A stretch of 64,000 nt of DNA from Cytophagales bacterium. Its GTDB lineage: Bacteria > Bacteroidota > Bacteroidia > Cytophagales > VRUD01. Position 1 is the stretch's first letter; each line of letters starts with the position of its first letter. The notes beneath the pieces are model-generated. The model was not told the origin of the DNA, did not search any database, and was given only the letters and a program-made list of their open reading frames with translations. Location of the stretch: assembly GCA_019456305.1 (NCBI GenBank), contig VRUD01000002.1, forward strand, positions 20,118-84,117. Direction: 5' to 3'. The translations under genes and the position numbers were made by a program. Below are positions 19,905-53,410 of this stretch, in pieces.

Positions 19905-19996
19905 TGGGCATCTCTAAAAACTACACCATACATTCCCCTCTATCAAGAGGGGCAAGGGGTGTGTTTTAAAAAATATGTAGTTTTTAGAGATGCCCA
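19905..19996. repeat. Perfect 21-bp-stem hairpin element just downstream of the OMP gene stop
   Basis: tgggcatctctaaaaactaca (19905..19925) is the exact reverse complement of tgtagtttttagagatgccca (19976..19996). An inner hairpin cccctc-tatcaa-gagggg is present. Confidence 0.85.
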
Positions 19997-25765: not shown

Positions 25766-26018
25766 ACCCCGTTACAAGTTTTAGCTATAACTTTTTCAGA
25801 AAATATGCAACTTTAATTAGTGTCTGTCTATAAAGTAGAATGTTTAATATATTATAGTAAAAACATAACTTCGTAAGTTGATTAAAAAGTCGGCAGTCCA
25901 CAGTCGGCAGTCAGCAAATTTGCCAACTGCCAACTGCCGACTTAATGTTGAAACTTTGGATTTTCATTAACGAATATTTTTGACATTATAGACAGACACT
26001 AATTAGTTGTAACGGGGT
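25766..26018. repeat. Nested inverted-repeat element between the TonB receptor and the TPR-CHAT gene
   Basis: Outer arms accccgttacaa / ttgtaacggggt. Middle arms ttaattagtgtctgtctataa (25813..25833) / ttatagacagacactaattag (25986..26006). Core hairpin aagtcggcagtccacagtcggcagtcagc aaattt gccaactgccaactgccgactt (25886..25942). Confidence 0.8.
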
Positions 26019-30666: not shown

Positions 30667-32016
30667 ATGCTTCCCTCTGCCTGGTCTGTCATCCCATTTA
30701 TTTTGCTTCTCTCTTTGATTGCCATGGGCCCATTATTTTTTGAGCATTTCTGGCATAAAAAGTATCCGTTAATCTCAGTGTGTTTAGCAGCATTGGTTGT
30801 GATCTATTACATTTTCATGCTGGACAATTCACATAGCCCTATGCATGCTGCGATTGAGTATATGCAGTTTATCTCATTGCTCGCATCTTTGTTTATCGCA
30901 TCAGGCGGCATTCTGATCAAGATAGACAGGGATGGAACTCCAATGGCAAACACCATCTTGCTAATCATAGGATCTGTTGCTGCAAACCTTATTGGGACTA
31001 CCGGAGCCTCTATGCTTCTTATAAGGCCATTTATACGTTTAAACAAAAACCGGATTAAGGCATATCACATTGTTTTTTTCATATTCATGGTGAGCAATGT
31101 AGGTGGTTCGTTAACCCCCATAGGCGACCCACCGCTTTTCTTAGGCTTCCTAAAGGGAATACCATTCTTCTGGACATTATTTCATAATGTGATACCGTGG
31201 GCTTTTGCGGTTTGTATTCTTGCGTTGGTATTTTATTTCTTTGATAAGAGAAATAATAGCAGACATGTTAGCAGTACGGATGACATGTCTGGGCAGATAG
31301 AAAACCATACCGGTAAAGTTACAATTAAAGGAAGCAAAAACTTTTTTTGGCTTGGGGTGATCATCTGTGCCGTTTTTATTGATCCCAATGTATTTGACTG
31401 GGTGCCTTACATATTATATGAGGAACAAAAGATATCTTTTTTAAGAGAGCTCATCATGCTTTCCACGGCTGTTTTGTCGTACAGGTTTGCAAACAAAGAA
31501 GCATTAACAGGCAATGAGTTCGAATTTGAACCAATCAGGGAAGTGGCATTTTTGTTTATAGGTATTTTTGGAACCATGATACCTGCCCTTGATCTTGTTG
31601 CTCAATATGCCAACTCTGAGGCGGGTATGGCAATGATCAATCAAAACAGCTTATACTGGGGAACAGGCGCGTTATCTGCTGTGCTTGATAATGCCCCTAC
31701 TTATCTTAATTTCTTAGCTGCCGGCATCGCATCAAAGGGAGGAACCATCCAAAACATGGCTGAGATAAGAATATATGCTGCAGGTGGCTATGCAAATTCG
31801 ATCATTGAACTGACTGCCATATCAATTGCTGCAGTGTTTTTTGGGGCTATGACCTATATAGGTAATGGGCCAAATTTTATGGTAAAATCCATTGCTGAAC
31901 AAATTGGAATAAAAATGCCCTCTTTCCTTGGTTACATTATTATGTACTCATTACCAATATTATTGCCTATTCTCTTTTTGGTTTGGTTGATATTCTTTTA
32001 TTTTCAGTTGATTTGA
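30667..32016 (+). CDS. Ion-transporter-superfamily permease (ArsB/NhaD/CitMHS-like; putative Na+/H+ antiporter)
   Basis: 449 aa, about 11-12 TM. 'GGSLTPIGDPPLFLGF', 'LDNAPTYLNF'. Confidence 0.6.
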   Translation: MLPSAWSVIPFILLLSLIAMGPLFFEHFWHKKYPLISVCLAALVVIYYIFMLDNSHSPMHAAIEYMQFISLLASLFIASGGILIKIDRDGTPMANTILLIIGSVAANLIGTTGASMLLIRPFIRLNKNRIKAYHIVFFIFMVSNVGGSLTPIGDPPLFLGFLKGIPFFWTLFHNVIPWAFAVCILALVFYFFDKRNNSRHVSSTDDMSGQIENHTGKVTIKGSKNFFWLGVIICAVFIDPNVFDWVPYILYEEQKISFLRELIMLSTAVLSYRFANKEALTGNEFEFEPIREVAFLFIGIFGTMIPALDLVAQYANSEAGMAMINQNSLYWGTGALSAVLDNAPTYLNFLAAGIASKGGTIQNMAEIRIYAAGGYANSIIELTAISIAAVFFGAMTYIGNGPNFMVKSIAEQIGIKMPSFLGYIIMYSLPILLPILFLVWLIFFYFQLI

Positions 32017-32241
32017 ATTTTCTGCCACAAAGAAATTTTTAGTTTTTCTTTATGGCTTTGTGGCAATTTTTTTTATCATTAGGATTTTTTAAAGAGTTCT
32101 AAAAAAACCATATATTTGGGCTTTTATAAATAAAATAGGCTTTAGTTTAATATAGCGTGTTAAACTGTATCTTAGCTCTGTAAATGTACACGAAATTGAT
32201 AAAATCTGCAGTCTGCAGTCGGCAAAAAGGCAAAATTGATA

Positions 32242-32362
32242 AAGTCGGCAGTTGGCAGTCGGCAATCTACAGTCCCCAGTCGGCAAAAAACAATTGCCGA
32301 CTGCTCCCGAGTACTCGGGATGGACTGCCGACTGCCGGCTGGAGACTGTCGACTGCCGACTT
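32242..32362. repeat. Long hairpin built from GCCGACT/GCCAACT heptamer arrays with a central CCCGAGTACTCGGG
   Basis: aagtcggcagttggcagtcggcaatctacagtccccagtcggcaa ... ttgccgactg ctCCCGAGTACTCGGGat ggactgccgactgccggctggagactgtcgactgccgactt. Confidence 0.8.
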
Positions 32363-32441
32363 AAAGGTATTCAATGTGATTTTGAAAAATTATGCATTTT
32401 GCAACGTTAGTTTAAACTAAAGCCATAAAATATTAGCAGCT

Positions 32442-33626
32442 ATGAAAACCTATAACATCATCTCAACTATAGTCGGAATATTATTTCTTTTTGTTTTCAC
32501 ATTATCGAATGGAATTCTTGCACAAGAAAATAAATGGATCATTTATGATACAATTAATTCAGAACTTCCTGCAAACTGGATCAATTCAATAGCAGTCGGC
32601 AATGACGGGAATGTATGGATAGGCGCTGGCAGCTATAGTGGCGGTGGTGTAGCAAAACTTGTCCTGCCAGTCTCGAGCTCCGAGGGGAACGGTAGCGAGG
32701 AGAATGTAGAGACGTTGCGTAGAGACGCCCAATTTGGACGTCTCTACGCAACGTCTCTACATTCTCCCAAATGGACTGTCTTTTATGCCTCAAATTCGGG
32801 ATTACCGGAAAATTACATAAGGTCGGTTGCGCTAGATAAAAAAGGAAATCTGTGGGCTGGTACAGAATATAGCGGCATTGCCATGTTTGATGGCAGTAAC
32901 TGGACGGTTTACAATACTTCTAATTCTGGCCTGCCTGTAAATTACGTCAAATCAATATGTGTTGATGAAAAAGGAAATACATGGATTGGAACTTTTGGCG
33001 GGGGTATAGTAAAACTAACTTTCAGTGGAAGCGAAGGTTTGCCAAAATGGACAATTTATAACACTTCAAATTCAGGTATTGCCGGTGATATCATTGGAGC
33101 AATAAATATTGATCAGAAAGGAATAGTTTGGGTTGGTACTTATGAAGGTGGACTGTCAGGATTTGACCCTGAAAAATCTAAGCAACCGTGGGTGGTACTT
33201 AATACTTCAAATTCAAAGCTGCCCAATAACCGTATTAAATCAATTGCTTTTGACAAAAAGGGAAATACCTGGCTTGGAACCAATGGAGGCCTGGTAACAT
33301 TTGCTCCCGGTGAGTCAAAAAGCTGGAAGGTCTATGATCAAAGTAATTCTGACCTCCCTGATAATAAGGTTTGGGCCGTTGCTATTGACCAGGATGATAA
33401 TATTTGGATAGGAACAGATAAGGGTGGTATTGCAAAACTTGTCCCGGGCGTTAGCGAGGGATCCCCCGGGGAAAAAGCTGAAATTTCGAACGAAGCAACA
33501 TGGTCAATTTATAACAAAAAATCAAAAACAGGCCTAACTGTTAATACGATCGTATCAATTGCCATTGACTCCCGGGGATACAAATGGGTTGGGACCTATG
33601 GCGGGGGGATAGCGGTGTTTAAATAG
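32442..33626 (+). CDS. Secreted Reg_prop (two-component-regulator propeller) repeat protein without Y_Y_Y/TM
   Basis: 394 aa with a signal peptide. Repeated 'YNTSNSGLP.N.V.SI..D.KGN.W.GT..GG' blades. Contains a 63-nt perfect hairpin in-frame. Confidence 0.85.
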   Translation: MKTYNIISTIVGILFLFVFTLSNGILAQENKWIIYDTINSELPANWINSIAVGNDGNVWIGAGSYSGGGVAKLVLPVSSSEGNGSEENVETLRRDAQFGRLYATSLHSPKWTVFYASNSGLPENYIRSVALDKKGNLWAGTEYSGIAMFDGSNWTVYNTSNSGLPVNYVKSICVDEKGNTWIGTFGGGIVKLTFSGSEGLPKWTIYNTSNSGIAGDIIGAINIDQKGIVWVGTYEGGLSGFDPEKSKQPWVVLNTSNSKLPNNRIKSIAFDKKGNTWLGTNGGLVTFAPGESKSWKVYDQSNSDLPDNKVWAVAIDQDDNIWIGTDKGGIAKLVPGVSEGSPGEKAEISNEATWSIYNKKSKTGLTVNTIVSIAIDSRGYKWVGTYGGGIAVFK

Positions 33627-33735
33627 TTATTGGATGTCGGACCCGCCTGCCATAGGCCTTTGGCGGGCAGGTGTTGGATGTTGGAAGATTTTAAAGAATA
33701 TATGTAAAAAAAAATGTGGAAATAAAATATAAATT

Positions 33736-39982: not shown

Positions 39983-40133
39983 GAGTACACTCTAATAAGT
40001 CCAAAAAATAAAAATGCCACTAAAACACCAAAGCACTAAATCCCACAAAACCCTGAAAATCAATTAGTTAATTTTTAGTGGGATTTTGTGCTTTGGTGCT
40101 TTTGTGGCAAAAAAGACTTTTTAGAGTGGACTC
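39983..40133. repeat. Second copy of the same long-stem palindromic family, directly after the fadB-like stop
   Basis: gagtacactctaataagtc ... gccactaaaacaccaaagcactaaatcccacaaaa ... ttttagtgggattttgtgctttggtgcttttgtggc ... gactttttagagtggactc. Confidence 0.8.
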
Positions 40134-41111: not shown

Positions 41112-43889
41112 TCAAACTATATCATCATCCTGCTTTTTATTTTTCAGATCCCTGCCTCTTAAATATCTCCTCAAAAACAACTGCACCGGCAGCAAGGTTG
41201 AAGCCAGTACCAAATTTAACAAGGTTTTGATGATAGGAGCGCTTCCAACATATTCTTCGTACAAAGGTTCGCACAAATTTTGGATAAATTCAAAAATAAC
41301 GAATAATGTGATATACACCATTATAGTGACTGTTCTGCCTTTACTGCCTTTACGGCTTGCTAATAAAGTACCTCCTATCAAAAGCATAAAAAACAGCAAC
41401 TGTGCGCTGTAGAACCAGCCAGTTTCCCAATAAGGCGGGGTAATAGTAATTGCAACAAAGATCCCATTTTGCCAAATGCCGTCATTATTGGAAGCTTTGA
41501 CCTTAAAAACATAATCGCCAGGGTCAATGTTTGTGTATTTTGCAATTCTGTTGCCGGCATCGCAATAGGTCCAGTCCTTGTCAAAATCTGCCAGCTTGTA
41601 GGCATATTGATTTTTCAGGGGGTCTGTAAAATCAAGTGCAGCAAATTCAAAGACGAAATTATTTTCATCATAGCTTAGCGTAACATTATTATTTTCATTG
41701 AGATCTTTAACAATTTGCCTGTTTTTAACTTTAAATTTTGTAATGGCGATGGGGGGTAGGTGTGGGTTGTCCACTACACTATCAGGATGAAAGATGTTAA
41801 ATCCGTGCATGCCTCCAAACACCATCTCACCTGTTTTTAATTTGCAATGTGCCTTGGTAAATTCGTTGTTCTGTAATCCGTCAGATTCGGTATAGATTCG
41901 AAAGGTTTCTCTTTCGGTGTCAAACTTCACAAGACCTTTATCAGTGCTTATCCATAGATAGCCGTGATCATCTTCCAGCATGCCTCCGATATTATTGCCG
42001 GGCAGTCCGTTTTCTGTTGTATAATGGCTGAAATTTCTTTTTTCTTTATTGAACTTGTTTAACCCATTGCTACCAATCCATACAATACCTCTGCTGTCTT
42101 CAAAAATTACAGTTATCGCATCACCCCCACCCCAAAATGTCGTTGAATCATGGGGTTTGTAAATAAAATGTTCTACTTCATCGTTTTCAAGGTTCATGCG
42201 GCATAATTTTCCATCAGTGGTGCCAACCCAAAGGTAACCTTTGCTGTCTTCATATATTTTTTTTGATAAACTATACAGGTAAGATAATTCATGAAGTTGT
42301 TTTTGGTAATATTTGCCTTTTTGTTTATCAAACAATTTTACACCCTGATTTCCCCATATTCCAACCCAAAAATTACCTTTGCTGTCTTCAAATAGATCAT
42401 GTATCCAGTCATAGTTATTATTATATATGAAAAAGCTATCGTTTTTTTTATCATACCTGAGCAATCCGTTGTTAGCTGCCCACAAACCAACCCACATAGT
42501 GCCGGATCTATCTTTATAAATCACTTGAACTTGATCTCTTTTGGTGTTAGCCGTATTAAACCGGTAATTTTTAAAAGTTCCATTTTTGCGGTCAAATACG
42601 TCCAGTCCTTTATCTTCCGTTCCGATCCACAGATTTCCATCATCATCTTCTATTATTGTTCTTATCCTGTTTGATGAAAGGGAATTATTATCTCCAACAA
42701 TATGCCTGTAATGTTTAAATTTGTACTTGTTCCTGCTGTATTTGCTGATGCCCTGGCCGGTTCCAATCCAAATATTTCCAGCTCTGTCTTCGTATATTTT
42801 ATTGATAGTATTATCAATTAGTGAACCCGGATCATTTTGATTATGTGGAGTGAATAATAGCTTGTTTTTTAAAACATCATACCTACAAACTCCTTCTTCT
42901 CTCATATAACCACCAAACCAGATCAATCCACGCCTATCTTCAATTATATCATACACTGGTCCGACAGGGAATTTTTGAAAATCCTGACGTTTAGGAAAGT
43001 GTTTGAAAAAATCAGGTCGATTTGCCAGATATGTATACCAATGTTGATCCCCAAGCCAGAGGTTTCCATAACGATCATTTAAAATACAACTTAAACATCC
43101 ACCTTTAATACCGGGAATTTCTTTGCTGCCCCTCTCATATATTTTCATTGTTTCCTCATCTCTATCAAATTTTATAAGACCAATACCACAACTCACGATC
43201 CACAAATTACCTCCCTTGTCTTCGTATATTTGATGTGCAGGATAATTTGGATGTCTATACTCACTGCCATGTTCAAAATGTTTAAACCTTGTTCCGAGCC
43301 CCGCCAAAGGCGGGGAGGGATCTCTTTTTTTATCACTAGTTCCTTTATTAACAGATCCTTTGCTGTCGCTCAGGACAAGCTTATTCAACACCCCATCTGC
43401 GGTCTCAATCCATAGTATTCCGCTTTTGTCGGCATAGATTTCCCTTACATAGTTATCGCTTAAGCTATTTTTATTATCCACATCATGGAAATAGTTAATG
43501 AACAGCTCATTGTTCCTGTCGTATTTATTCAGTCCTTTAAGAGTACCAATCCATAAATTACCGTAAATATCTTCTGTGATGGAAGAAATATAGTTGTCAG
43601 AGATCGTAGTGGAATCATGTGGTTTGTTAGTGTAAATTTGAAACTGGTATCCATCATACTTATTTAATCCTTCATAGGTTCCGATCCACAAAAACCCATA
43701 TTTATCCTGGAAGATATCTAATATCTCATTGTTGCTTAATCCGTCTGCTGTAGTGAGATTATCGAACTTTGATTGGGTGTCTTTTATTTTAATTACTTTG
43801 AACCTGTTACTGGAGTGATTGTAGGTTTGGGCTGTAATTTTTTCTCCCCAAAAAATGCCTGCAAGGATAAGTAGTGTGTTGATTTTCAT
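41112..43889 (-). CDS. Reg_prop/Y_Y_Y sensor paralog A ending in the conserved 3-TM module
   Basis: 925 aa. Signal peptide, many 'DGL.NN.I..I.ED..GN.WIGT..GL.K(Y/F)' blades, Y_Y_Y 'NNFVFEFAALDFT..NQYAYKL..FDKDW'. The C-terminus is 'WFYSAQLLFFMLLIGGTLLASRKG..FEFIQNLCEPLYEEYVGSAPIIKTLLNLVLASTLLPVQLFLRRYLRG'. Confidence 0.9.
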   Translation of the reverse strand: MKINTLLILAGIFWGEKITAQTYNHSSNRFKVIKIKDTQSKFDNLTTADGLSNNEILDIFQDKYGFLWIGTYEGLNKYDGYQFQIYTNKPHDSTTISDNYISSITEDIYGNLWIGTLKGLNKYDRNNELFINYFHDVDNKNSLSDNYVREIYADKSGILWIETADGVLNKLVLSDSKGSVNKGTSDKKRDPSPPLAGLGTRFKHFEHGSEYRHPNYPAHQIYEDKGGNLWIVSCGIGLIKFDRDEETMKIYERGSKEIPGIKGGCLSCILNDRYGNLWLGDQHWYTYLANRPDFFKHFPKRQDFQKFPVGPVYDIIEDRRGLIWFGGYMREEGVCRYDVLKNKLLFTPHNQNDPGSLIDNTINKIYEDRAGNIWIGTGQGISKYSRNKYKFKHYRHIVGDNNSLSSNRIRTIIEDDDGNLWIGTEDKGLDVFDRKNGTFKNYRFNTANTKRDQVQVIYKDRSGTMWVGLWAANNGLLRYDKKNDSFFIYNNNYDWIHDLFEDSKGNFWVGIWGNQGVKLFDKQKGKYYQKQLHELSYLYSLSKKIYEDSKGYLWVGTTDGKLCRMNLENDEVEHFIYKPHDSTTFWGGGDAITVIFEDSRGIVWIGSNGLNKFNKEKRNFSHYTTENGLPGNNIGGMLEDDHGYLWISTDKGLVKFDTERETFRIYTESDGLQNNEFTKAHCKLKTGEMVFGGMHGFNIFHPDSVVDNPHLPPIAITKFKVKNRQIVKDLNENNNVTLSYDENNFVFEFAALDFTDPLKNQYAYKLADFDKDWTYCDAGNRIAKYTNIDPGDYVFKVKASNNDGIWQNGIFVAITITPPYWETGWFYSAQLLFFMLLIGGTLLASRKGSKGRTVTIMVYITLFVIFEFIQNLCEPLYEEYVGSAPIIKTLLNLVLASTLLPVQLFLRRYLRGRDLKNKKQDDDIV

Positions 43890-43996
43890 AATGGAATATA
43901 CTTCAGAACATTCACCCTATGGAATTACCAATAGATCGGGAAGCGAAGCTATTCTACAGGGTAAATGTTTGCGTTTTAGCGATTTACAAAATCGCT

Positions 43997-46663
43997 TTAC
44001 ATCAATTCCCCTTTATCCTTTCCTTTCTGCTGTTTACCTCTCAGATATTTCCTCAAAAACAACTGCACCGGCAGCAAAGTTGAAGCCAGTACCAAATTTA
44101 ACAAGGTTTTGATGATAGGAGCGCTTCCAACATATTCTTCGTACAAAGGTTCACATAAATTTTGGATAAACTCAAAGATCACAAACAAACAGATATAAAC
44201 GAGTATGGTGATTGTGCGTGTTCCGGCACCTTTACGGCTGGCAATCAAGGTGCCTCCGATGAGCGCCATGAAGAACAGCAGCTCGGCGCTGTAAAACCAC
44301 CAGGATTGCCAGTAAGGTGGTTTGATGGTGAAGAAAAAGGTTGTAGGTTTCCAATTCCAAACACCATCATTATTGCAGGCGATAACCTTGAATGTGTATT
44401 TTCCCGGATTAAGGTTGGAGTATGTGAAGTGTGTTTCCTGAGTTTCGGATGACCATTTTTCATCAAATCCTTTAAGCTGATAACGGTAATGCACTTTTTC
44501 AGGTATGGTCAGAGAGATACCTATGTATTCGAAGGTGAGATGGTTTTTGTTGTAGGGTAGCACTAAACCAATTGGCATGCCGCTGTTTACAGAATCACAG
44601 TAAGGATGCCAATCTTCTTCACCTGAGAAGAGTTTTATTGCAGTAATATGTGTTAAGGGCTCAATTGTATTGGGTATATCTGCATTGGGATTGTATTTTA
44701 CTGCGCCTTTAGTAGTACCAAACCATAAATTTCCTTTTTTATCAATGCAGATATTAGACCCACATTCGGTCCCCCTGAAACCCTCTTGTATACCATAATG
44801 TTTAAATTTTTTCTTGCCTGTTTTGTTGTAAAGGGCTACATCAAATTTATTAATCCCTCTACCGGTAGCAGCCCATAAATTTCCGCTACGGTCAAAAATT
44901 AGTGATGCGATGATGTCATTGCTTAAGCCATCTTGAGTTGTAAAGCTGTCAATAACTTCTAAAGTTTTTTTATGATGAAATTTGCATTTAAAAATACCTT
45001 CTCCGTCAGTTCCAAACCACAGATTGCCTTGCAGGTCCTGGGTGATACTAAATACTGCTTTATAAGTGAAACTTTCATTTGCAGAAATGTTTTTAATAGT
45101 ATCCCCATTAAATACATTGACGCCACCACCATAGGTTCCGAACCACATATTGTAAGATATGTCTTCATAGATGCATAAAATTCTATTCGGATTTCTGCCA
45201 CCTTCCACTCTAAAATACTCTTTCTTTTTTCCGTCATATCTATATGCTCCGGCACCTCCTGAGCCAAACCACATATTACCTGAATGATCCTCATAAACAC
45301 ACATCCAGCCATTGAAAGGAACGCTAATCAATTCATTGTTATGAAATTGAAAACCTCCTGTTCTCGCCATATCATGCGAAAACCATATATCTCCGTTTTT
45401 ATCCTCTGCAACGGAAGTAATTCTGCTAATGGGCAAACCCTCTATTGAAGTAAAATTTGTAAACCCGCTATTGTCAGCACTTAAAGAATCGGGGCTATAC
45501 TTACTGATCCCCCCTTCGGTCGCGAACCAACTATTACCATTACGGTCTTCAATAATCCCATTGATCGTATTATTTACCAATCCAACTTCTTCATTATAAT
45601 AAGTAAACTTTTCGCCATTATATTTACAAACGTCACTGCCAAAAGTTCCAATCCAGATATTTCCTTCCCTATCATGTAATATTGACCACGTGGAATTAAT
45701 AGGGAGTCCCTGCTTTGTTGTAAAGTTGGTAAAAACCTTACCGTCATATTTGAATATTCCTCTTTCAAATGTTGCAATCCAGATATTGCCTTCAACATCT
45801 TTTGTCAACCCGATCATTGGAGAACCAAGTGCAAAACTTGTGATGTTATCTCCATCATGCCCATGTGGGTCAAATTTTTTTATGCTTCCACTCCAGGACA
45901 CACACCAAATACTACCATCATCATCTTCAACAATTCCAAAGCTTGCTGCAATTGAGCTTACCTTAATAACAGTATCACCCGTTGTTCCTTTCGGATCATA
46001 TTTAAAAAGTCCGCCACGCAATGCTCCAAACCACAGATTATCCTCATTATCCTGCATCATTGCACCGATCACGTTGCTTTTATATTTGCTGTTGATCTGA
46101 TAATTTTTAAATAAAATTGTATCAACCCCGCCTGTTTGCGGGGCTGAGTCTTTTTGATCAATGGTAGAACCTTGCGAATAATATGAAATAAGCTTGTTTG
46201 TGCCAACCCATAAATTTCCATCTTTATCTACAAGCAATGACCTGACGAAATTATAGGGTAATCCATTTTTAGTTGTATAAGCAGTAAATTTTGTACCATC
46301 AAATTTACTTAAGCCATTTGTTGTACCGAACCACATATTCCCATCATGATCTTCAGCAATAGAAAGTACCCTGTAATTGAGCAAGCCGGCTTTATCCGTA
46401 AAATTTTTAAAAGTTTTACCGTCAAACCGGCTCACACCGCCATGGGTGCCAAACCAGATGTAGCCCCTGCTGTCCTGGTACATGCATTCAATGGCTGATT
46501 GCACCAGGCCGTTTTCTACGGTGTAATAGGAAAAGTTATGCTGCCCTTCTGCTGGGCGGACAGATTGAGCCCATGATTCAAGATTAAAAATTGTTGAACA
46601 AAGCAAAATCCCGATGATAATCTGGAAAAATAGGAGAATGGATATGATTTGTAATTTTTTCAT
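43997..46663 (-). CDS. Reg_prop/Y_Y_Y sensor paralog B ending in the conserved 3-TM module
   Basis: 888 aa with the same architecture. Y_Y_Y 'NHLTFEYIGISLTIPEKVHYRYQLKGFDEKW'. C-terminal module as in paralog A. Confidence 0.9.
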   Translation of the reverse strand: MKKLQIISILLFFQIIIGILLCSTIFNLESWAQSVRPAEGQHNFSYYTVENGLVQSAIECMYQDSRGYIWFGTHGGVSRFDGKTFKNFTDKAGLLNYRVLSIAEDHDGNMWFGTTNGLSKFDGTKFTAYTTKNGLPYNFVRSLLVDKDGNLWVGTNKLISYYSQGSTIDQKDSAPQTGGVDTILFKNYQINSKYKSNVIGAMMQDNEDNLWFGALRGGLFKYDPKGTTGDTVIKVSSIAASFGIVEDDDGSIWCVSWSGSIKKFDPHGHDGDNITSFALGSPMIGLTKDVEGNIWIATFERGIFKYDGKVFTNFTTKQGLPINSTWSILHDREGNIWIGTFGSDVCKYNGEKFTYYNEEVGLVNNTINGIIEDRNGNSWFATEGGISKYSPDSLSADNSGFTNFTSIEGLPISRITSVAEDKNGDIWFSHDMARTGGFQFHNNELISVPFNGWMCVYEDHSGNMWFGSGGAGAYRYDGKKKEYFRVEGGRNPNRILCIYEDISYNMWFGTYGGGVNVFNGDTIKNISANESFTYKAVFSITQDLQGNLWFGTDGEGIFKCKFHHKKTLEVIDSFTTQDGLSNDIIASLIFDRSGNLWAATGRGINKFDVALYNKTGKKKFKHYGIQEGFRGTECGSNICIDKKGNLWFGTTKGAVKYNPNADIPNTIEPLTHITAIKLFSGEEDWHPYCDSVNSGMPIGLVLPYNKNHLTFEYIGISLTIPEKVHYRYQLKGFDEKWSSETQETHFTYSNLNPGKYTFKVIACNNDGVWNWKPTTFFFTIKPPYWQSWWFYSAELLFFMALIGGTLIASRKGAGTRTITILVYICLFVIFEFIQNLCEPLYEEYVGSAPIIKTLLNLVLASTLLPVQLFLRKYLRGKQQKGKDKGELM

Positions 46664-46798: not shown

Positions 46799-49700
46799 TT
46801 AAATTTTAATCCCAATAACCAACACATCATCTATCTGCTCCTCATTGCCTTTCCATTTTTCAAAGGTAATATCTAATTTTTCACGCTGCTGTTCCATTGA
46901 AAGATCCTGTATTTCAAGGATAAGCTCTTTGAATCGTTTGTAGGAAAACTTTCTTCCTTCAGAGCCACCAAATTGATCAGCATAGCCATCTGAAAACAGG
47001 TAGATGCTGTCCCCTTTTTTTAAATTAATGGTATGGTCTGTAAAAATTTTTGTTCTGCCCCTGCTATCTGTTTCGCCCACCTTATCAATGCCAATCGGAA
47101 AACTGTTGCCTTTGACCTCACACAGATCATCACCAAAGGTGCGGACTTTATCATTATGCCCCAAGTCCCCCAGCTCGTGGATGATGTTTTTTCTAATTAT
47201 GTATAAAGGATTGTAAGCGCCAGCATATTGTAGTGAACGGGCATGCCCGTTCACTACACCTATACTGCAAATAGCAATATCCATCCCATCTTTTGTTTCA
47301 GAGCCCTCACCTGTTTGTTTTAAGGCATTCACAATACCATCATTGAGCTCTCCCAATATCTTTGCCGGTTGGTTAATTTTCCTTTTATTTATTATTTCAT
47401 TTAACAGGTCATTGCCTATCATGCTCATAAAGGCCCCGGGCACGCCATGGCCGGTGCAATCAACTGCCGCTATAATAAAAGAGGCCCCCCTATCAGTCCC
47501 CCCTAAATCCCCCCCAAAGGGGGGGACTTTGCCATCGCTTTTGCCTTGGGGAAGGGTAGAGTGTTGGCCAGTTCTCCCCCCTTTGGGGGGAGTTAGAGGG
47601 GGGCTGATGGGGCTGCTAAACCAATAAAAATCTCCACTCACAATATCCTTTGGCTTAAACAAAATGAATGACTGCGGAAAAACTTTATTGACCACATCAA
47701 CAGGAGGGAGAATAGCTTCTTGTATCAACTTTGCATAATTGATGCTATCTGTAATATCCTTATTCCTTTGTTCAATAACTTCATTGGTCTGAGCAATTTC
47801 CTCATTCAAAAAGTTTAACTCTTCATTCGTTATTTTCAATTCATCTCTTTGTACCGTTAATTCTTCTTTTTGCATTAGTATTTCCTCTTTCTGCGTCATA
47901 ACTTCAGCAGTACGTATTTTCACTTGATGCTCTAACTTCTTTTTTGCCTTTTGTAAATTTCTCACACGCCAACTATAAAAACCATAAATACTGCTCCCAC
48001 CGGTAATAAAACATAGCATATAAAACAATAAGGTTTGCCAAAAAGGAGGGGTGATGATAAAACTAAAAGTGGTTGGCTTTTTATTCCAGACTCCATCATT
48101 ATTACATGCTTTTACTTTTAGGATGTATTTTCCGGGCGGAATATTGGAATAGGTTACTTCATTTTTTTTTGTAATTGGCGACCAGTGTTGATCAAACCCG
48201 TCTAATATCCACTGATATCGCACTTTTTCCGGAATTTTAGTACTGATCCCGACAAAATCAAAAGTAAGATGATTTTGATTGTAGGATAGTTTCAAATTCA
48301 AGGGTAAAGCAAACCAGGGAGAAAAGCTATCAATCTGATAGTGGGAGCGCCATTTTGCACTGTTTACTTCTTCAAAAAACAGTTTTATTCCTGTAATGTA
48401 TGTTCTTGCCTCAACCATATTAGGCTTATCTTCTTTAGGGGAATATTTGTTGACGTCATTCACTGTACCAAACCACAGATTTCCTTTTGAGTCTCTGTAA
48501 ACAGCATTATTATTACACTCAACGCCCCTGAATCCATCTAATATAGAATATTGTTTAATTTTATAAGAGCCATTACTACTATCCGGGATAATTTTGTTGA
48601 TCCCGTTATTTGTCCCTGCCCAGATATTTCCCTCATCATCAACTATGAGGGAAACAATTGCGGCATTGGTTAAGCCGTCTTTAGTAGTAATATAAGACCA
48701 TGAATTATCAGGATGCAATATTGAAATCCCCTCGCCATAAGTGCCAAACCAACTATTTTGATAATTATCTTCAATAATTGATATAACACGGTGGTCGCTT
48801 AAACCTTCAATAAATTTTCCTACTAAATTGGGTAAGTTTTTTTTAAATTTCTTCACATGCTCCTTTTTAATAAAATGCGTGAATTTTTCGTTGGAAATAT
48901 CATCACTTGCTTTGTTGAGCAAACTTACACCTTCGCTCGTACCAAGCCATATTCTTCCTTTGCTGTCTTCATAAATTTTATTAACAGTGTTCCCAATGAT
49001 CCCTGTTTGAGTGTTATAATTAATAAATGAACCGGGTTTGTTTGAAAGGGAGTATTCCGGATTCAAGTATAAAAATTTAACAGCGCCTCCTCCTTCAGTA
49101 CCTACCCATAAATTTCCCCTGCTATCCACGAGCATTGAAAATATGTGATCGCTTGTCAGCCCATCAAGTTCAATACAGTTTTTGTTTCCATCGGCACAGG
49201 ATTTTTTTCTTTTATAAATTAGAAACTTATTCCCCGGTGTGGTGATGTCTTTTTCAATTAATTTATTGATACCTCCTCCTAAGGTACCAATCCAAATATC
49301 TCCGTTCTTATCATCAACAATAGCATGGACAACGCTTTCACCGATTCCCTGATCCCATGAATATTGTGTAAAATTGTTTCCATCAAAATTAAATACACCG
49401 CCACCCCAGTTGCCAAACCACATTTGCCCATATTTGTCTTCATGAATGGAAACCGCTGATTTAATGTTTAGATAGGTAAAAATCTTACCACTAAACATAG
49501 AAGCTCCACCGCTATATCCACCAAACCAAAGATTACCCTCACGGTCTTCCATAATAGAAATGATATGGTTATTACATAAACCTTGCCCCTCGTGATACCG
49601 TAAAATAGCGCCGGTTTGGGGATCATATTTTTCTACACCAAAACCGTCATGACCGAACCAGATATTACCTGCCTTGTCTTCAAAAATATCCCAGACACGG

Positions 49701-50584
49701 TTGGTACTTAGGGCATCCTGTAATGGAAAAGGTAAAAAGGAAACTTTACTAAACCTTTGAGGTTTAGTAAAGTTATTATTCAAAGAATCAATATTACTGC
49801 TTTTATAAAAATTAATACTTTCTTCAGGTAAATATGAAATCCCCCCTCTCCAACTGCTGACCCAGATATTTCCCTTTTTGTCTGGGAGTATGGCTCTTAC
49901 AAAATTATTGCTTAAACCCTGTTGTCGTGTAAAGTGTATGAAATCCGGATTAGCCACTTCATTTTGATAATAATCTGCTAATAAAAGATTTATTCCCCCA
50001 CCCCAGGTGCCAAACCAAATATTTTGATTCATATCTTTAACAATGGTGTTGACATAGCTATTGCTCAAGCCTTCATTTTTAGTATAATTTGTGATCTTAA
50101 AAGTATCTTTTGGGAATGTAGTATGGTTGGCAGTCAGCACACTAACACCTGCCGGTGTTCCAATCCAGATATTTCCACTTTTATCATTAAGTAGGGCAAG
50201 GGCAGTATTATCAACCAAACCAAACTCAGTAGTGATATTCTTAAAAACTTTTCCATCAAAGATGCTTACACCTCCATCTGTCCCAAGCCACATACGCCCT
50301 TTGTTGTCTTCAATAATTGCATAAACAAAGTTATTGGCAAGGCCATCATCAGTTGTAAAGTTTTTAAAAGAAACACCATCATAGCTGCTGACACCACCTT
50401 CTGTTGCAAACCAGATGTATCCCCTGCTGTCTTCATACATTGCATTTACCTGCGACTGTGCCAGGCCATTTTCAACCGTAAAATTTTTGAAGTTGTATTG
50501 CTGTGCAGAGCAGTAAGCAGTACGCAGTATGCAATAAGCAATTAACAGAGCAAGATAAATTGTAGGAACGATATTTCTTAGCAT
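46799..50584 (-). CDS. Reg_prop/Y_Y_Y sensor paralog C with one TM, a coiled coil and a SpoIIE/PP2C phosphatase domain
   Basis: 1261 aa. Y_Y_Y 'NHLTFDFVGISTKIPEKVRYQWILDGFDQHW'. TM 'LLFYMLCFITGGSSIYGFYSW'. Heptad-rich linker. PP2C 'SGDFYWF','AAVDCTGHGVPGAFMSM','DGMDIAIC','FSDGYADQFGG'. Confidence 0.9.
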   Translation of the reverse strand: MLRNIVPTIYLALLIAYCILRTAYCSAQQYNFKNFTVENGLAQSQVNAMYEDSRGYIWFATEGGVSSYDGVSFKNFTTDDGLANNFVYAIIEDNKGRMWLGTDGGVSIFDGKVFKNITTEFGLVDNTALALLNDKSGNIWIGTPAGVSVLTANHTTFPKDTFKITNYTKNEGLSNSYVNTIVKDMNQNIWFGTWGGGINLLLADYYQNEVANPDFIHFTRQQGLSNNFVRAILPDKKGNIWVSSWRGGISYLPEESINFYKSSNIDSLNNNFTKPQRFSKVSFLPFPLQDALSTNRVWDIFEDKAGNIWFGHDGFGVEKYDPQTGAILRYHEGQGLCNNHIISIMEDREGNLWFGGYSGGASMFSGKIFTYLNIKSAVSIHEDKYGQMWFGNWGGGVFNFDGNNFTQYSWDQGIGESVVHAIVDDKNGDIWIGTLGGGINKLIEKDITTPGNKFLIYKRKKSCADGNKNCIELDGLTSDHIFSMLVDSRGNLWVGTEGGGAVKFLYLNPEYSLSNKPGSFINYNTQTGIIGNTVNKIYEDSKGRIWLGTSEGVSLLNKASDDISNEKFTHFIKKEHVKKFKKNLPNLVGKFIEGLSDHRVISIIEDNYQNSWFGTYGEGISILHPDNSWSYITTKDGLTNAAIVSLIVDDEGNIWAGTNNGINKIIPDSSNGSYKIKQYSILDGFRGVECNNNAVYRDSKGNLWFGTVNDVNKYSPKEDKPNMVEARTYITGIKLFFEEVNSAKWRSHYQIDSFSPWFALPLNLKLSYNQNHLTFDFVGISTKIPEKVRYQWILDGFDQHWSPITKKNEVTYSNIPPGKYILKVKACNNDGVWNKKPTTFSFIITPPFWQTLLFYMLCFITGGSSIYGFYSWRVRNLQKAKKKLEHQVKIRTAEVMTQKEEILMQKEELTVQRDELKITNEELNFLNEEIAQTNEVIEQRNKDITDSINYAKLIQEAILPPVDVVNKVFPQSFILFKPKDIVSGDFYWFSSPISPPLTPPKGGRTGQHSTLPQGKSDGKVPPFGGDLGGTDRGASFIIAAVDCTGHGVPGAFMSMIGNDLLNEIINKRKINQPAKILGELNDGIVNALKQTGEGSETKDGMDIAICSIGVVNGHARSLQYAGAYNPLYIIRKNIIHELGDLGHNDKVRTFGDDLCEVKGNSFPIGIDKVGETDSRGRTKIFTDHTINLKKGDSIYLFSDGYADQFGGSEGRKFSYKRFKELILEIQDLSMEQQREKLDITFEKWKGNEEQIDDVLVIGIKI

Positions 50585-50623
50585 ATTTGTAAATTTAGAA
50601 CCATGGATATATGAAAAATCAAT

Positions 50624-53410
50624 CTACACCAACCCATCTTCAACTCCTCCTTGTTTTTTCTCTTTACCTCTCAGATATTTCCTCAAAAACAACTGCACAG
50701 GCAGCAAAGTTGAAGCCAGTATCAAATTTAAAAAAGTCTTTATGATAGGAGCGCTGCCGACATATTCTTCATATAAAGGTTCGCACAAATTCTGAATAAA
50801 CTCAAAGATCATAAACAAACAAATATAAACCAGGATAGTAACGGTCCGGTCTTTTACTCCTCTGCGCCTGGCTAATAATGTTCCGCCAATTAAAAGCATA
50901 AAAAACAGCAGTTGGGCGCTGTAAAACCAGCCTGTTTCCCAGTATGGTGGTTTGACTATGAAGGAAAAGGTGGTGGGTTCTTTGTTCCAAACACCGTCAT
51001 TATTGCATGCTTTTACCTTTATCGTGTATTTACCTGGAGGAATATTGGAATAAGTGGCAATATGTTCCTTTCCGGGAGGGGACCAGGCATTGTCCATTCC
51101 TTCCAGCTTGTATTGGTATTTTACTTTTTCAGGGATGGTTAAACTGATACCAACAAAATTAAAAGTTAAATGATTTTTGTAGTAGGGAAGTTTCAGATTA
51201 AAAGGTAACCCAGTATTTGCATGAATACTATCAGAAAAGTTTAAATAGTTAAAATCTTTTAAAAAAAGCCTAATCCTGGTAATATGTGTTTTCGGTTGGT
51301 TGGTATTTATTTTGTCTTTTCGGGGATCAAATTTTGTAATTCCCTTAACAGTTCCAAACCATAAATTGCCTTTTGTATCACTAAAGATGGAATTGCATTC
51401 AATACCTGTAAATCCTTCTAATTTGCCATAATGCTTAATTTCAATTTCACCTGTAGTGTTAAACTTATTGATATTAAATCTGTCAATACCTTTATTTGTA
51501 CCGGCCCAAAGATACCCCACTTCATCTATTACCATCGAAATAACACTATTGGAACTTAAGCCATCGGCTTGCATAATGGTTTGAAAATATTTACCATCTT
51601 TTCTTTCATCATTATATTTGCTTACACCACCTCCTAAAACACCAAACCAGACGTTACCTTCATTATCTTCCTGTATCGTTGTAACAATTGTACCTTCTAA
51701 ACCTAAATTGTCTTTTTTAGTAAAACCTTTCATAGTTTTACCGTCATATTTATTTATTCCACCATATGAAGCCATCCAAACATTTCCTTTACTATCAACT
51801 AATATATCATTTATATATCTTTGAACTAACCCATCATTTAAAGTAAAATTAGTAAACATGGGAGGGGATCCCTCGCTGTCGCCCAGGACAAGCTTTGAAA
51901 CGCCACCATTTGTTCCAATCCACAAACACCCTTCACTGTCTTCGTCAATTGAAATAATTCTGTTAGTGATCATTCCGTCATCTCTTGTAAAAATGGTCAA
52001 TTCATTAAATTCTTTTTTAGGATCATACTTGCATAGCCCTGCCGGTGTGCCTATCCAGATATTGCCTTTCCTATCCTTAAGCAAAACAGTGACAACATTG
52101 ACCGGTAATCCTTCATTTGTAGTATAATTTGTAAAAGTTAGAGAGGAGCTAAGCTTACTCAACCCGCCTTCAGTAGCAAACCAGATATTTCCATCCTGAT
52201 CTTCTGTGAATGAACTTACTTTATGATTTATGATACCATCTTTTTCATAATAATGAGTAAACGCATCCCCACTGAATTTGCATAAACCACTTCCACTTGT
52301 CCCTATCCAGATGTTGCCTTCATTATCTTCGAGTAAGCTTCTTACAGAATTTCCGCTTAATCCATTTTCCTCCCTGTAATTTTTAAATCCTACACCCGAT
52401 TTTAAATCGGATGTACCAGCACGATCGTATTTGCTAACACCACCATTACAGCCAAACCAAAGATTTCCCACTTCATCTTCAATTATAGTAAGCACCATAT
52501 TACCTGCCAATCCATCTGCTACAGAATAATGTTCAAAATTTTTGCCATTATAATAACTCACCCCTGTATAATAGTCGCCCATCCAAATAGACCCTTTGTT
52601 ATCTTCAAGCAGAGCACAAATAAATCTGTGTTCAAGGCCTTGTTGTGTGGTAAAAGTTTCAATATTTTTGCCTGCCTCGCCCGCCTGCCATGTTTGGGCT
52701 TTGCCTTTGGAATGTACAGACGCCCAATTTGGGCGTCTCTTGTCGGGGAGCGTATCAGGGTAATTATACCTGAATAAACTTGATTTTACCCCAAACCATA
52801 TATTATTGTTTTTATCCTGCATCACTGCCCAGACCTGGCTTTCTTCCAAATTATTTTTTTTACTGAAATTTGTGAATTCCTTTCCATTGTAAGTACAGAT
52901 GCCTTTGGTGGTGGCTAACCATAACACGCCCTTGTGATCTTCTATTATTTTTAATATGATGTTACTATTTAAACCATCTTTTACGGTATAATTAATAAAG
53001 TACAGACGCCCAATTTGGGCGTCTCTGTTAACATCATCATTCTTTTCTTCACCAGAACTGCCACTGCTACTGCCTTTATATTTCCCCAATCCACCGCTGT
53101 CCATGCCAATCCAGATATTTCCTTTTGAATCTTCCATGATTGAATAAATACGATCATTACCCAATCCGTCTTTTGAAGTGAAAATAACGAAATTAGTACC
53201 ATCAAAGCGACATAAACCGCCTCCGTAAGTTCCAATCCATAAATAACCTTTACTGTCCTGCAATAATGCATAGACCTGAGATTGCGGTAATCCATTTTCT
53301 ATGGTATACCAGGAAAAGTTGTATTGTTGAGCAGTGCAGTGAGCAGTACGCAGTATACAATAAGCAATTAACAGAGCAAGATAAATTGCAGGAACGATAT
53401 TTCTTAGCAT
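50624..53410 (-). CDS. Reg_prop/Y_Y_Y sensor paralog D ending in the conserved 3-TM module
   Basis: 928 aa. Y_Y_Y 'NHLTFNFVGISLTIPEKVKYQYKLEGMDNAW'. C-terminal module as in A and B. At least four repeat-encoded inserts. Confidence 0.9.
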   Translation of the reverse strand: MLRNIVPAIYLALLIAYCILRTAHCTAQQYNFSWYTIENGLPQSQVYALLQDSKGYLWIGTYGGGLCRFDGTNFVIFTSKDGLGNDRIYSIMEDSKGNIWIGMDSGGLGKYKGSSSGSSGEEKNDDVNRDAQIGRLYFINYTVKDGLNSNIILKIIEDHKGVLWLATTKGICTYNGKEFTNFSKKNNLEESQVWAVMQDKNNNIWFGVKSSLFRYNYPDTLPDKRRPNWASVHSKGKAQTWQAGEAGKNIETFTTQQGLEHRFICALLEDNKGSIWMGDYYTGVSYYNGKNFEHYSVADGLAGNMVLTIIEDEVGNLWFGCNGGVSKYDRAGTSDLKSGVGFKNYREENGLSGNSVRSLLEDNEGNIWIGTSGSGLCKFSGDAFTHYYEKDGIINHKVSSFTEDQDGNIWFATEGGLSKLSSSLTFTNYTTNEGLPVNVVTVLLKDRKGNIWIGTPAGLCKYDPKKEFNELTIFTRDDGMITNRIISIDEDSEGCLWIGTNGGVSKLVLGDSEGSPPMFTNFTLNDGLVQRYINDILVDSKGNVWMASYGGINKYDGKTMKGFTKKDNLGLEGTIVTTIQEDNEGNVWFGVLGGGVSKYNDERKDGKYFQTIMQADGLSSNSVISMVIDEVGYLWAGTNKGIDRFNINKFNTTGEIEIKHYGKLEGFTGIECNSIFSDTKGNLWFGTVKGITKFDPRKDKINTNQPKTHITRIRLFLKDFNYLNFSDSIHANTGLPFNLKLPYYKNHLTFNFVGISLTIPEKVKYQYKLEGMDNAWSPPGKEHIATYSNIPPGKYTIKVKACNNDGVWNKEPTTFSFIVKPPYWETGWFYSAQLLFFMLLIGGTLLARRRGVKDRTVTILVYICLFMIFEFIQNLCEPLYEEYVGSAPIIKTFLNLILASTLLPVQLFLRKYLRGKEKKQGGVEDGLV

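What the first reader, a model, noticed from the sequence alone, without database searches (positions are those of the whole stretch)
32702..32764. 63-nt perfect hairpin (26-bp stem) inside a coding region; the core element is reused in two reading frames of another gene
Seen:
- gaatgtagagacgttgcgtagagacg (32702..32727) is the exact reverse complement of cgtctctacgcaacgtctctacattc (32739..32764). The loop is cccaatttgga.
- The hairpin is translated in-frame as 'ENVETLRRDAQFGRLYATSLHS' in a loop of the Reg_prop protein.
- The core gtacagacgcccaatttgggcgtctct occurs twice, identically, in paralog D (52715..52741 and 53000..53026). Both copies have the same orientation, but they are read in different frames: 'KRRPNWASVH' and 'NRDAQIGRLY'.

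Established knowledge: Rickettsia palindromic elements (RPEs) are the classic case of selfish palindromes inserted in-frame into genes.

Inference: an analogous Bacteroidota element family is tolerated in surface loops of propeller proteins.
Basis: partly seen in the sequence, partly recalled or inferred. Interest (0 to 1): 0.65.

Follow-up and report, generated by a model that had tools for sequence, protein, structure and literature searches.

The report
Nested REP palindromes inside propeller genes
The hairpin is real, but it is a known kind of small selfish DNA palindrome (a "double-foot" REP element tied to RAYT transposases), here nested one inside another and carried harmlessly, in frame, in a surface loop of a beta-propeller protein.

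Summary
Window 32699-32767 is a 69-nt palindrome with one mismatch, and it folds far better than shuffled sequence (z = -13). It lies in frame in a 394-aa Reg_prop protein. The same core occurs twice in a second Reg_prop gene, read in two other frames.

It is not a new Bacteroidota family. The unit is a sharply bounded 29-nt "double-foot" REP, GTAGAGACGCCCAA[A/T]TTGGGCGTCTCTAC. The window hairpin is that unit sitting exactly at the dyad of a sister REP, GTAGAGACGTTGC..GCAACGTCTCTAC. Quentin et al. 2018 list this sister sequence for a cyanobacterial RAYT of subclass 2.4.

- I found 161 copies of the core in 125 fetched loci from many phyla and from viral contigs, and most are intergenic.
- 25 of those loci carry a Y1/HUH transposase with the subclass-2.4 motifs NHVH, WQ and YIxNNP. 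Often the REP lies in frame inside the transposase gene, a feature already published.
- Close orthologs (about 85% identical) lack the 32702 and 53000 copies.
- Both host genes have dN/dS of about 0.39, so they are not pseudogenes.
- AlphaFold places the insert in a low-confidence excursion between strands of an otherwise confident propeller.
- Intragenic copies elsewhere sit in unrelated proteins, including MmeI, a TrpD-C-F fusion, Cas1 and RadA.

Verdict: a good example of a known phenomenon, of low to moderate interest.

The parts
32699..32767 (.). Full 69-nt near-perfect palindrome: 34-nt arms, 1-nt centre, one mismatch.
32719..32747 (.). Inner 29-nt double-foot REP, GTAGAGACGCCCAATTTGGACGTCTCTAC (GCCCAA type). 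It carries the recurrent G-to-A variant in the right arm.
   Evidence: the variant TTGGACGTCT recurs in about 19 of the 161 copies fetched from other genomes and viral contigs
32706..32718 (.). Left arm of the outer sister REP, GTAGAGACGTTGC (TTGC type).
   Evidence: the stand-alone form GTAGAGACGTTGCATGCAACGTCTCTAC is listed in Quentin et al. 2018 Table S1
32748..32760 (.). Right arm of the outer sister REP, GCAACGTCTCTAC.
32442..33626 (+). Host gene: a 394-aa Reg_prop beta-propeller protein with an N-terminal hydrophobic leader. The insert corresponds to residues 87-108.
52714..52740 (.). REP copy GTACAGACGCCCAATTTGGGCGTCTCT, read on the minus strand as KRRPNWASVH. The foot that would give a TAG stop in this frame is degenerate (CAAG in place of GTAG). 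The ortholog has an unrelated 33-nt segment here.
53000..53026 (.). REP copy GTACAGACGCCCAATTTGGGCGTCTCT, read on the minus strand as NRDAQIGRLY. It is a clean 27-nt insertion relative to the ortholog, with no target-site duplication.
50624..53410 (-). Host gene of the two other copies: a 928-aa Reg_prop + Y_Y_Y protein.

Best explanation
The hairpin is a pair of nested REP elements of the 'double-foot' type, which has a 5' GTAG foot, a GC-rich stem and a 3' CTAC foot. These are the non-autonomous partners of RAYT/TnpA_REP tyrosine (HUH-Y1) transposases of subclass 2.4 (RAYT group 4). A 29-nt GCCCAA-type REP sits exactly at the dyad of a TTGC-type sister REP. The composite, about 60-63 nt or 20-21 codons, lies in frame in a loop between beta-strands of a Reg_prop propeller. 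By inference from what is known of RAYTs, such elements are cut and rejoined as single-stranded DNA hairpins by a RAYT encoded elsewhere in the genome. Copies that land in genes survive only if they keep the frame, avoid the one frame that opens with TAG, and fall in loops or linkers. The encoded peptide has no function of its own: it is a tolerated passenger. Shown here: the palindrome, its nesting, its absence from close orthologs, the family's boundaries and spread, its link to RAYT genes in other genomes, and the loop placement. Inferred: that a RAYT moved it, and that it is neutral.
For: Unit definition: 161 copies of the core in 125 fetched loci share sharp GTAG...CTAC boundaries with unrelated flanks. 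54 of 79 distinct full copies have no extra flank pairing. RAYT link: unbiased clustering of ORFs near the copies gives one dominant family, present in 25 loci. It scores above the Pfam cut-off for Y1_Tnp (26.3 and 25.0 against 23), and its best NCBIfam hit is REP-associated tyrosine transposase (E 1e-15). Its motifs NHVH, WQ and YIxNNP, and the REPs inserted in frame between HuH and Y, match Quentin et al. [quoted passage not shown] Their Table S1 lists GTAGAGACGTTGCATGCAACGTCTCTAC, which is the outer element. Locus L102 shows a classic REPtron, with REP arrays on both sides of the RAYT gene. Presence/absence difference between orthologs: ortholog P0001/L007 (84% identity by BLASTP, same neighbouring CitMHS_2 gene) lacks a 60-nt block. 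Ortholog P0121/L134 (85% identity) lacks exactly 27 nt at the 53000 site. Hosts are functional: dN/dS is 0.39 for both genes. Loop placement: the AlphaFold model has pLDDT 90.4 and pTM 0.86. Ten-residue blocks 81-110 score 53-64, against 92-98 for most of the propeller. The insert is a low-confidence helix between strands 67-73 and 111-114. Mostly extragenic: 28% of copies lie in long open stretches against 76% of random positions. Nesting recurs: the same architecture appears at another locus in JGI metagenomes, and flank pairing of 4 or more bases is seen in 6% of copies against 0.4% expected. In-frame intragenic REPs are documented (Di Nocera et al. 2013).
Against: No RAYT gene lies in the 64-kb window, and the rest of the source genome could not be searched, so a cognate transposase in this organism is not shown. 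The NCBIfam score (57.7) is below the curated equivalog cut-off of 80. REP mobilisation by RAYTs has not been demonstrated in vivo in the papers read here. The insertion boundaries at 32702 are blurred because the flanking loop also diverged. The 52714 copy is a replacement of similar length, not a clean insertion. All three window copies are intragenic, whereas the family is mostly intergenic. A precise deletion in the orthologs cannot be formally excluded.
Confidence: 0.85

Rival explanations
1. The composite palindrome was built locally rather than by one REP inserting into another. In this view a half-arm was duplicated next to a resident REP, and intrastrand template switching (quasi-palindrome correction) then made the structure symmetric. 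Only the first REP arrived by transposition.
For: Asymmetric half-arm duplications occur at L135, L142, L145, L133, L008, L119 and L120. Long tandem arrays of the 13-mer GTAGAGACGTTGC occur at L139 and L144. These show that half-arms amplify on their own. The window's exact composite was found nowhere else.
Against: The two nested units are different sister REPs, each a complete family on its own. The inner unit is complete and sits exactly at the dyad. A symmetric nested structure also occurs at an independent locus.
Confidence: 0.2
2. The hairpin is a selected cis-regulatory element within the gene, for example an mRNA-stability element, a translational pause site or a protein-binding site, and is kept for that function.
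For: The RNA hairpin is very stable (-59.6 kcal/mol). REPs elsewhere have been proposed to act as RNA elements (Di Nocera et al. 2013).
Against: It is absent from an 84%-identical syntenic ortholog. The same sequence is scattered through unrelated contexts and genes in many phyla. No T-run follows the hairpin, so it is not a typical intrinsic terminator. Rfam gives only sub-threshold hits to generic hairpin models.
Confidence: 0.05
3. The peptide (…RRDAQFGRLY…) is a selected protein motif of Reg_prop loops, and the palindrome is incidental.
For: Two of the three window copies encode RDAQ[FI]GRLY.
Against: The third copy uses another frame (RRPNWASV). Most intragenic copies elsewhere use a third frame (ETPNLGVS). 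Orthologs lack the peptide. The region has low pLDDT.
Confidence: 0.02
4. Assembly or sequencing artefact, such as a chimeric or fold-back read.
For: The window comes from a metagenome assembly.
Against: The reading frame is preserved. The same element family is present in more than 100 independent assemblies, including cultured isolates (Desulforhopalus vacuolatus DSM 9700, Maribacter chungangensis, Adhaeribacter soli) and closed chromosomes.
Confidence: 0.01

Closest known systems
'Double-foot' REP sequences of TnpA_REP subclass 2.4 / RAYT group 4 (Quentin et al. 2018, BMC Genomics 19:475; Bertels et al. 2017)
   Same: It has a 5' GTAG foot and its complement CTAC at the 3' end, a fully paired GC-rich stem of about 10-12 bp, and a short loop. 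It is dispersed in multiple copies and linked to Y1/HUH transposases with NH[IFV]H, WQ and YIxNNP motifs. REPs are inserted in frame between HuH and Y inside the transposase gene. It is found in Bacteroidetes, Cyanobacteria and scattered phyla. The outer element's sequence, GTAGAGACGTTGCATGCAACGTCTCTAC, is listed verbatim in their Table S1.
   Different: The GCCCAA inner-stem variant does not appear in that table ('GAGACGCCC' gave 0 hits). No cognate RAYT is seen in this window. Here two sister REPs are nested at the dyad and sit inside a non-transposase gene.
GTAG-tagged REPs and intragenic REPs (Di Nocera, De Gregorio and Rocco 2013, BMC Genomics 14:522)
   Same: A GTAG-tagged palindromic repeat that is mostly extragenic, with a minority of in-frame intragenic copies that add short peptides to unrelated proteins, DNA repair genes among them. 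RadA is a host here.
   Different: In most of their families the GTAG tag is unpaired and present at one end only. Here it is mirrored at both ends. They reported CGTC-type, not GTAG-type, repeats in Bacteroidetes.
Rickettsia palindromic elements (RPEs)
   Same: Palindromic selfish repeats found in frame inside protein-coding genes and tolerated in permissive regions.
   Different: The sequences are unrelated. By my recollection RPE-1 is much longer (about 100-150 bp). RPE-4 and RPE-6 are classed as CGTC-tagged REPs with no associated transposase. The element here is GTAG-tagged and RAYT-associated.
REPINs of Pseudomonas and Enterobacteria (Bertels and Rainey 2011)
   Same: Non-autonomous hairpin-forming repeats thought to be mobilised by a single-copy RAYT.
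   Different: REPINs are two inverted REPs separated by a spacer, are lineage-specific, and go with RAYT groups 2 and 3. Here the unit is a single compact 29-nt palindrome that keeps the same sequence across phyla.

Membership tests
Double-foot REP of TnpA_REP subclass 2.4 | [quoted passage not shown] | tested here: met
   GTAG at 32706 and 32719; CTAC ending at 32747 and 32760. This is also the consensus of the 161 copies. Definition.
Double-foot REP of TnpA_REP subclass 2.4 | A fully paired basal stem of 7-20 nt with a short loop | tested here: met
   The stem AGACGCCCAA/TTGGGCGTCT is 10 bp, or 14 bp with the feet, with a loop of 1-3 nt. Rules quoted.
Double-foot REP of TnpA_REP subclass 2.4 | Multi-copy, dispersed and predominantly extragenic | tested here: met
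   161 copies in 125 loci. 28% lie in long open stretches against 76% of random positions. There are 3 copies in the window against 0 expected.
Double-foot REP of TnpA_REP subclass 2.4 | Physical association with a RAYT gene (REPtron), including REPs inside the gene between HuH and Y | tested here: met
   25 loci carry the Y1 transposase family, with the REP read as VETPNLGVST in the linker. L102 has REP arrays on both sides of the gene. This was met in other genomes only.
Double-foot REP of TnpA_REP subclass 2.4 | A cognate RAYT present in the same genome as the window | not testable with these tools
   None in the 64-kb window.
Double-foot REP of TnpA_REP subclass 2.4 | Binding and cleavage of the single-stranded element by the RAYT | not testable with these tools
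   Needs biochemistry.
RAYT / TnpA_REP subclass 2.4 (the associated protein, in other genomes) | HuH motif NH[IFV]H, W motif WQ, Y motif YIxNNP, and a variable insertion between beta3 and alphaC | tested here: met
   PNHVHGI, FAWQSRF and YIxNNP are present, with linkers of 22-94 aa. Pfam PF01797 is above its cut-off. NCBIfam NF047646 gives E 1e-15 but is below the equivalog cut-off.
Rickettsia palindromic elements (RPE) | Sequence membership of an RPE family (RPE-4/6 are CGTC-tagged with a CCA tail; RPE-1 is long) | tested here: not met
   The element is GTAG/CTAC-tagged, 29 nt long and unrelated in sequence. It is an analogy only.
MITE | Terminal inverted repeats plus a target-site duplication | tested here: not met
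   The clean empty site at 53000 shows no duplication: GTTAAG|TTT against GTTAAC[27 nt]TTT.
Rfam RNA families | A score at or above a family's gathering threshold | tested here: not met
   Only sub-threshold hits to generic miRNA hairpin models, 31 bits or less against thresholds of 85-289.

The most novel reading that the evidence does not exclude
The nested REP-in-REP at the exact dyad, the tandem arrays of the 13-nt half-arm, and the excess of copies embedded in larger palindromes might together mean that subclass-2.4 RAYTs cut at two fixed points: 5' of the GTAG foot and at the hairpin apex. They would then integrate preferentially into the single-stranded loops of other hairpins, REPs included, which would be a self-targeting way for these elements to grow. 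Separately, the same 21-nt core of the 29-nt REP is kept in more than ten phyla, next to RAYTs that are only 44-66% identical. This would make it an unusually constrained and probably horizontally spreading REP-RAYT pair, at odds with the picture of lineage-specific, vertically inherited REPINs.
Probability: 0.2. Interest if true: 0.5.

Novelty: new member of a known kind. Interest (0 to 1): 0.25.

Why it matters
The finding mainly explains away an apparent oddity. A 63-nt perfect hairpin inside a gene turns out to be a catalogued class of REP element, so it needs no new biology. It still has some value. It is a clean natural example, with empty sites in close orthologs and a structural model, of how REPs are tolerated in protein loops. 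It extends the double-foot REP/RAYT-2.4 system to many uncultured lineages and viral contigs. The nested and half-arm arrangements give concrete, testable hints about where the transposase cuts and where it integrates. For annotation, recognising peptides such as ETPNLGVST, RDAQFGRLY and RDVACNVST as REP read-through would prevent spurious 'motifs' and spurious hypothetical ORFs.

Tried and rejected
- Rfam at a permissive E-value over 32000-33700 gave only sub-threshold matches to generic miRNA hairpin models, so I dropped the known-RNA idea.
- A full-text search for the exact sequence strings returned only primers and unrelated papers. The relevant literature turned up through REP/RAYT keywords instead.
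- phmmer with an IS200 TnpA sequence written from memory found nothing in the loci. This was uninformative, because the RAYTs are too diverged from it. Unbiased all-against-all clustering found them.
- tblastn of six RAYTs against the window matched only the REP-encoded peptides, so there is no RAYT in the window.
- A metagenome scan for the junction GAGACGTTGCGTAGAGACG did not recover the window's TTGC/GCCCAA composite anywhere else. It is therefore not a mobile composite unit in that collection.
- I considered a CRISPR-like array for the 54-nt and 97-nt periodic copies in L077 and L118. I rejected this because they lie inside or beside RAYT genes as REP clusters.
- I noted that the stem contains inverted BsmBI/Esp3I sites (GAGACG/CGTCTC) and considered a vector or adaptor artefact. 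I rejected this because of the frame-preserving genomic contexts in isolates and closed genomes.
- I considered the MITE model and rejected it because there is no target-site duplication.

Full report
**1. The observation**

The sequence at 32702-32764 is as described: the two 26-nt arms are exact reverse complements. The repeat finder extends the palindrome to 34-nt arms at 32699-32732 and 32734-32767. These are 97% complementary, with a single unpaired centre base and one mismatch.

As single-stranded DNA the region folds at -38.6 kcal/mol, against -9.2 +/- 2.3 for 200 dinucleotide-preserving shuffles (z = -13.1, none as good). As RNA it folds at -59.6 kcal/mol (z = -11.9).

The hairpin lies in frame in ORF 32442..33626(+). 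This 394-aa protein has an N-terminal hydrophobic leader and Reg_prop repeats (PF07494, E 6e-37). The hairpin reads ENVETLRRDAQFGRLYATSLHS.

The core AGACGCCCAATTTGGGCGTCT occurs twice more, at 52718-52738 and 53004-53024, with 0 matches expected in shuffles. Both copies lie in ORF 50624..53410(-), a 928-aa Reg_prop + Y_Y_Y protein, where they read KRRPNWASVH and NRDAQIGRLY, two different frames.

**2. Anatomy: two nested elements**

GTAGAGACG occurs twice on each strand within the hairpin. The structure is GTAGAGACGTTGC [GTAGAGACGCCCAATTTGGACGTCTCTAC] GCAACGTCTCTAC.

The bracketed 29-mer (32719-32747) is a complete copy of a unit defined below. The outer arms (32706-32718 and 32748-32760) are the two halves of a sister unit. 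That sister exists on its own as GTAGAGACGTTGC-(AT/GC/...)-GCAACGTCTCTAC in viral contigs and in a Kapaibacterium MAG that also carries the first unit. The inner unit therefore sits exactly at the dyad of the outer one. The further GAAT/ATTC pairing next to the feet recurs in a sub-family elsewhere (L049, L072, L076).

**3. The family**

Viral contigs gave 5 more.

The 161 copies share a sharply bounded consensus, GTAGAGACGCCCAA[A/T]TTGGGCGTCTCTAC, and their flanks are unrelated. In 54 of 79 distinct full copies not even one extra flank base pairs.

Hosts are mainly Bacteroidota. They also include Ignavibacteria/Kapaibacteria, Cloacimonadota, Desulfobacterota, Synergistales, Spirochaetota, Nitrospirales, Patescibacteria/Peribacteria, Firestonebacteria, FCPU426, Anaerolineae and Gammaproteobacteria MAGs. 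Cultured isolates are among them: Desulforhopalus vacuolatus DSM 9700, Maribacter chungangensis and Adhaeribacter soli. Some cross-phylum MAG assignments could be binning errors, but the isolates and closed chromosomes show the spread is real.

Only 28% of copies lie inside stop-free stretches of 150 codons or more, against 76% of random positions in the same loci. Several of those 28% are really upstream of the true start codon. So the element is mainly intergenic.

**4. The transposase link**

All-against-all clustering of ORFs from the fetched loci gave one dominant family, present in 25 loci. These are proteins of 170-250 aa with the pattern ...KYRIPSARL..WDY...YFITICT...MPNHVHGIIII...[variable linker]...GVIINQYKR...FAWQSRFHDHIIRN...YIxNNP..W.

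They score above Pfam's cut-off for Y1_Tnp (PF01797). Their best NCBIfam hit is 'REP-associated tyrosine transposase' (E 1e-15), although this is below the equivalog cut-off.

[quoted passage not shown] Sister REPs appear there as RDAINRVST, RDAMHRVST and VKTPESGVST. In L102 REP arrays flank the gene on both sides, and in L118 an array lies downstream, which is the REPtron layout.

This is exactly TnpA_REP subclass 2.4 (= RAYT group 4) of Quentin et al. 2018. That paper gives motifs NH[IFV]H/WQ/YIxNNP and 'double foot' REPs with a 5' GT[AG]G and a 3' C[TC]AC. It reports REPs inserted in frame within tnpA_REP between HuH and Y, and a distribution in Cyanobacteria, Bacteroidetes and various phyla. 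Their Table S1 lists GTAGAGACGTTGCATGCAACGTCTCTAC (Cyanothece, double foot = T), which is the window's outer element. It also lists GTAGAGACGCACGGCCGTGCGTCTCTAC from Chloroflexus. The GCCCAA variant is not in that table. In-frame intragenic REPs in unrelated genes were described by Di Nocera et al. 2013. No RAYT lies in the window itself.

**5. Insertion or ancestral sequence?**

The best homolog of the 394-aa protein, P0001, is 84% identical by BLASTP and 375 aa long. It has the same upstream CitMHS_2 gene, so it is a syntenic ortholog. It lacks a 60-nt block that includes the whole palindrome. The loop just upstream has also diverged, so the exact boundaries are blurred by about 3 nt.

For the second gene, ortholog P0121 (85% identical) lacks exactly 27 nt at the 53000 site: GTTAAG|TTTATT against GTTAAC[AGAGACG...CTGTAC]TTTATT. 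There is no target-site duplication. At the 52714 site the ortholog carries an unrelated 33-nt segment in place of the window's 30 nt, so that copy is a replacement rather than a clean insertion.

dN/dS between the orthologs is 0.39 for both genes, with dS of 0.18-0.21, so the hosts are functional genes.

**6. Frames and tolerance**

The unit is open in two frames, V-E-T-P-N-L-G-V-S-T and R-D-A-Q-F-G-R-L-Y. The third frame starts with TAG. The one window copy read in that frame (52714) has CAAG in place of GTAG, so the stop codon is absent. This fits survivorship selection.

The AlphaFold model, built on a 63-sequence alignment, has mean pLDDT 90.4 and pTM 0.86. The ten-residue blocks covering residues 81-110 score 53-64, while most of the propeller scores 92-98. 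The insert (residues 87-108) is a low-confidence helix between strands 67-73 and 111-114.

Intragenic copies in other genomes sit in the following places:
- an MmeI-family enzyme (several copies);
- the linker between the TrpD and TrpC domains of a fusion protein;
- a lamin-tail-domain protein;
- between the UPF0004 and radical-SAM domains of a MiaB-like enzyme;
- Cas1;
- RadA.

So tolerance is a matter of loops and linkers in general, not of propellers in particular. In this window, however, all three copies are in Reg_prop genes, which cover about 21% of the window.

**7. Nesting and half-arms**

A metagenome scan for the junction GAGACGTTGCGTAGAGACG found three kinds of arrangement:
- the same symmetric nested architecture (TTGC type within TTGC type) at one locus seen in several samples;
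- asymmetric duplications of the left half-arm;
- long tandem arrays of the 13-mer GTAGAGACGTTGC that end in a full hairpin.

Similar half-arm repeats exist for the GCCCAA type (L008, L056, L119, L120). Flank pairing of 4 or more bases is seen in 6% of copies against 0.4% expected. The window's own composite was not found elsewhere. Nesting is therefore a recurrent by-product of this system. Whether it arises by integration into hairpin loops or by local duplication followed by template switching is open.

**8. Mechanism**

Shown: a compact GTAG...CTAC palindrome family; its physical link to subclass-2.4 RAYT genes; presence/absence differences between close orthologs; and in-frame loop placement.

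Inferred from established knowledge of HUH-Y1 enzymes (IS200/IS605 TnpA, E. coli TnpA_REP): a RAYT recognises the folded single strand and its GTAG foot, then cuts and rejoins it. Gene-internal copies persist only when they are harmless.

The rivals all fit worse: a regulatory hairpin, a selected peptide, or an artefact (see the Rival explanations section).

**9. Novelty**

This is a known kind of element. The outer unit's sequence is already catalogued. The GCCCAA variant, the nested arrangement inside a Reg_prop loop and the wide spread in MAGs and viral contigs are new instances.

One point deserves a note. The RAYT cores next to identical REPs are only 44-66% identical, with a median of 55%. 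The REP is thus far more conserved than its enzyme. This comparison is biased, however, because the search required an exact core match.

Noticed in passing
window 47488-47612: There is a second, unrelated in-frame palindrome of about 125 nt, with 37-nt arms that each contain CCCCCCAAAGGGGGG. It lies inside ORF 46799..50584(-), a Reg_prop + Y_Y_Y + SpoIIE protein. It adds about 40 residues (ISPPLTPPKGGRTGQHSTLPQGKSDGKVPPFGGDLGGTDRG) between the GDFY and DCTGHG motifs of the SpoIIE/PP2C domain.
   Followed up: partly
window 32197-32361; also 25887-25943, 18433-18509, 7369-7437: Intergenic hairpins built from short tandem heptamer-like units (CAGTCGG, CAGTTGG, AGCTAAC). They resemble, from memory, the STRR repeats of cyanobacteria. 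One lies directly upstream of the host gene 32442..33626.
   Followed up: no
window 13175-13266 and 40015-40109: Two copies of a hairpin of about 92 nt (GCCACAAAAGCACAAAAACACAAAATCCCACAAAA / complement), each just downstream of a gene end. This is probably another dispersed repeat or terminator-like family.
   Followed up: no
window 41112-53410: Four large tandem Reg_prop + Y_Y_Y paralogs lie on the minus strand, one of them with a SpoIIE phosphatase domain. The small secreted Reg_prop protein at 32442 lies apart from them.
   Followed up: partly
L139 1753-1849, L144 5-101 (metagenome contigs): Tandem arrays of eight or more copies of the 13-nt REP half-arm GTAGAGACGTTGC, ending in one complete hairpin. 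The half-element evidently amplifies on its own.
   Followed up: partly
Loci L012-L122 (RAYT genes): RAYT cores next to identical REP cores are only 44-66% identical to one another (median 55%). Their HuH-to-Y linkers range from 22 to 94 aa and are largely made of REP read-through and other short repeats.
   Followed up: partly
L051 3812-4993, L116 1335-2519, L070 2825-5866, L089 3374-5770: The same REP is carried in frame inside Cas1, RadA, an MmeI-family restriction-modification enzyme (several copies, two REP types) and a TrpD-TrpC-TrpF fusion, at the interdomain linker.
   Followed up: partly
L002-L006, L128-L133 (IMG/VR contigs): Both REP types occur on contigs classed as viral. This could be a route for horizontal spread, or it could reflect prophage or host DNA in those contigs.
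   Followed up: no
window 19905-19996: A perfect 21-nt inverted repeat (TGGGCATCTCTAAAAACTACA / complement) with a 50-nt spacer, lying between two minus-strand ORFs.
   Followed up: no
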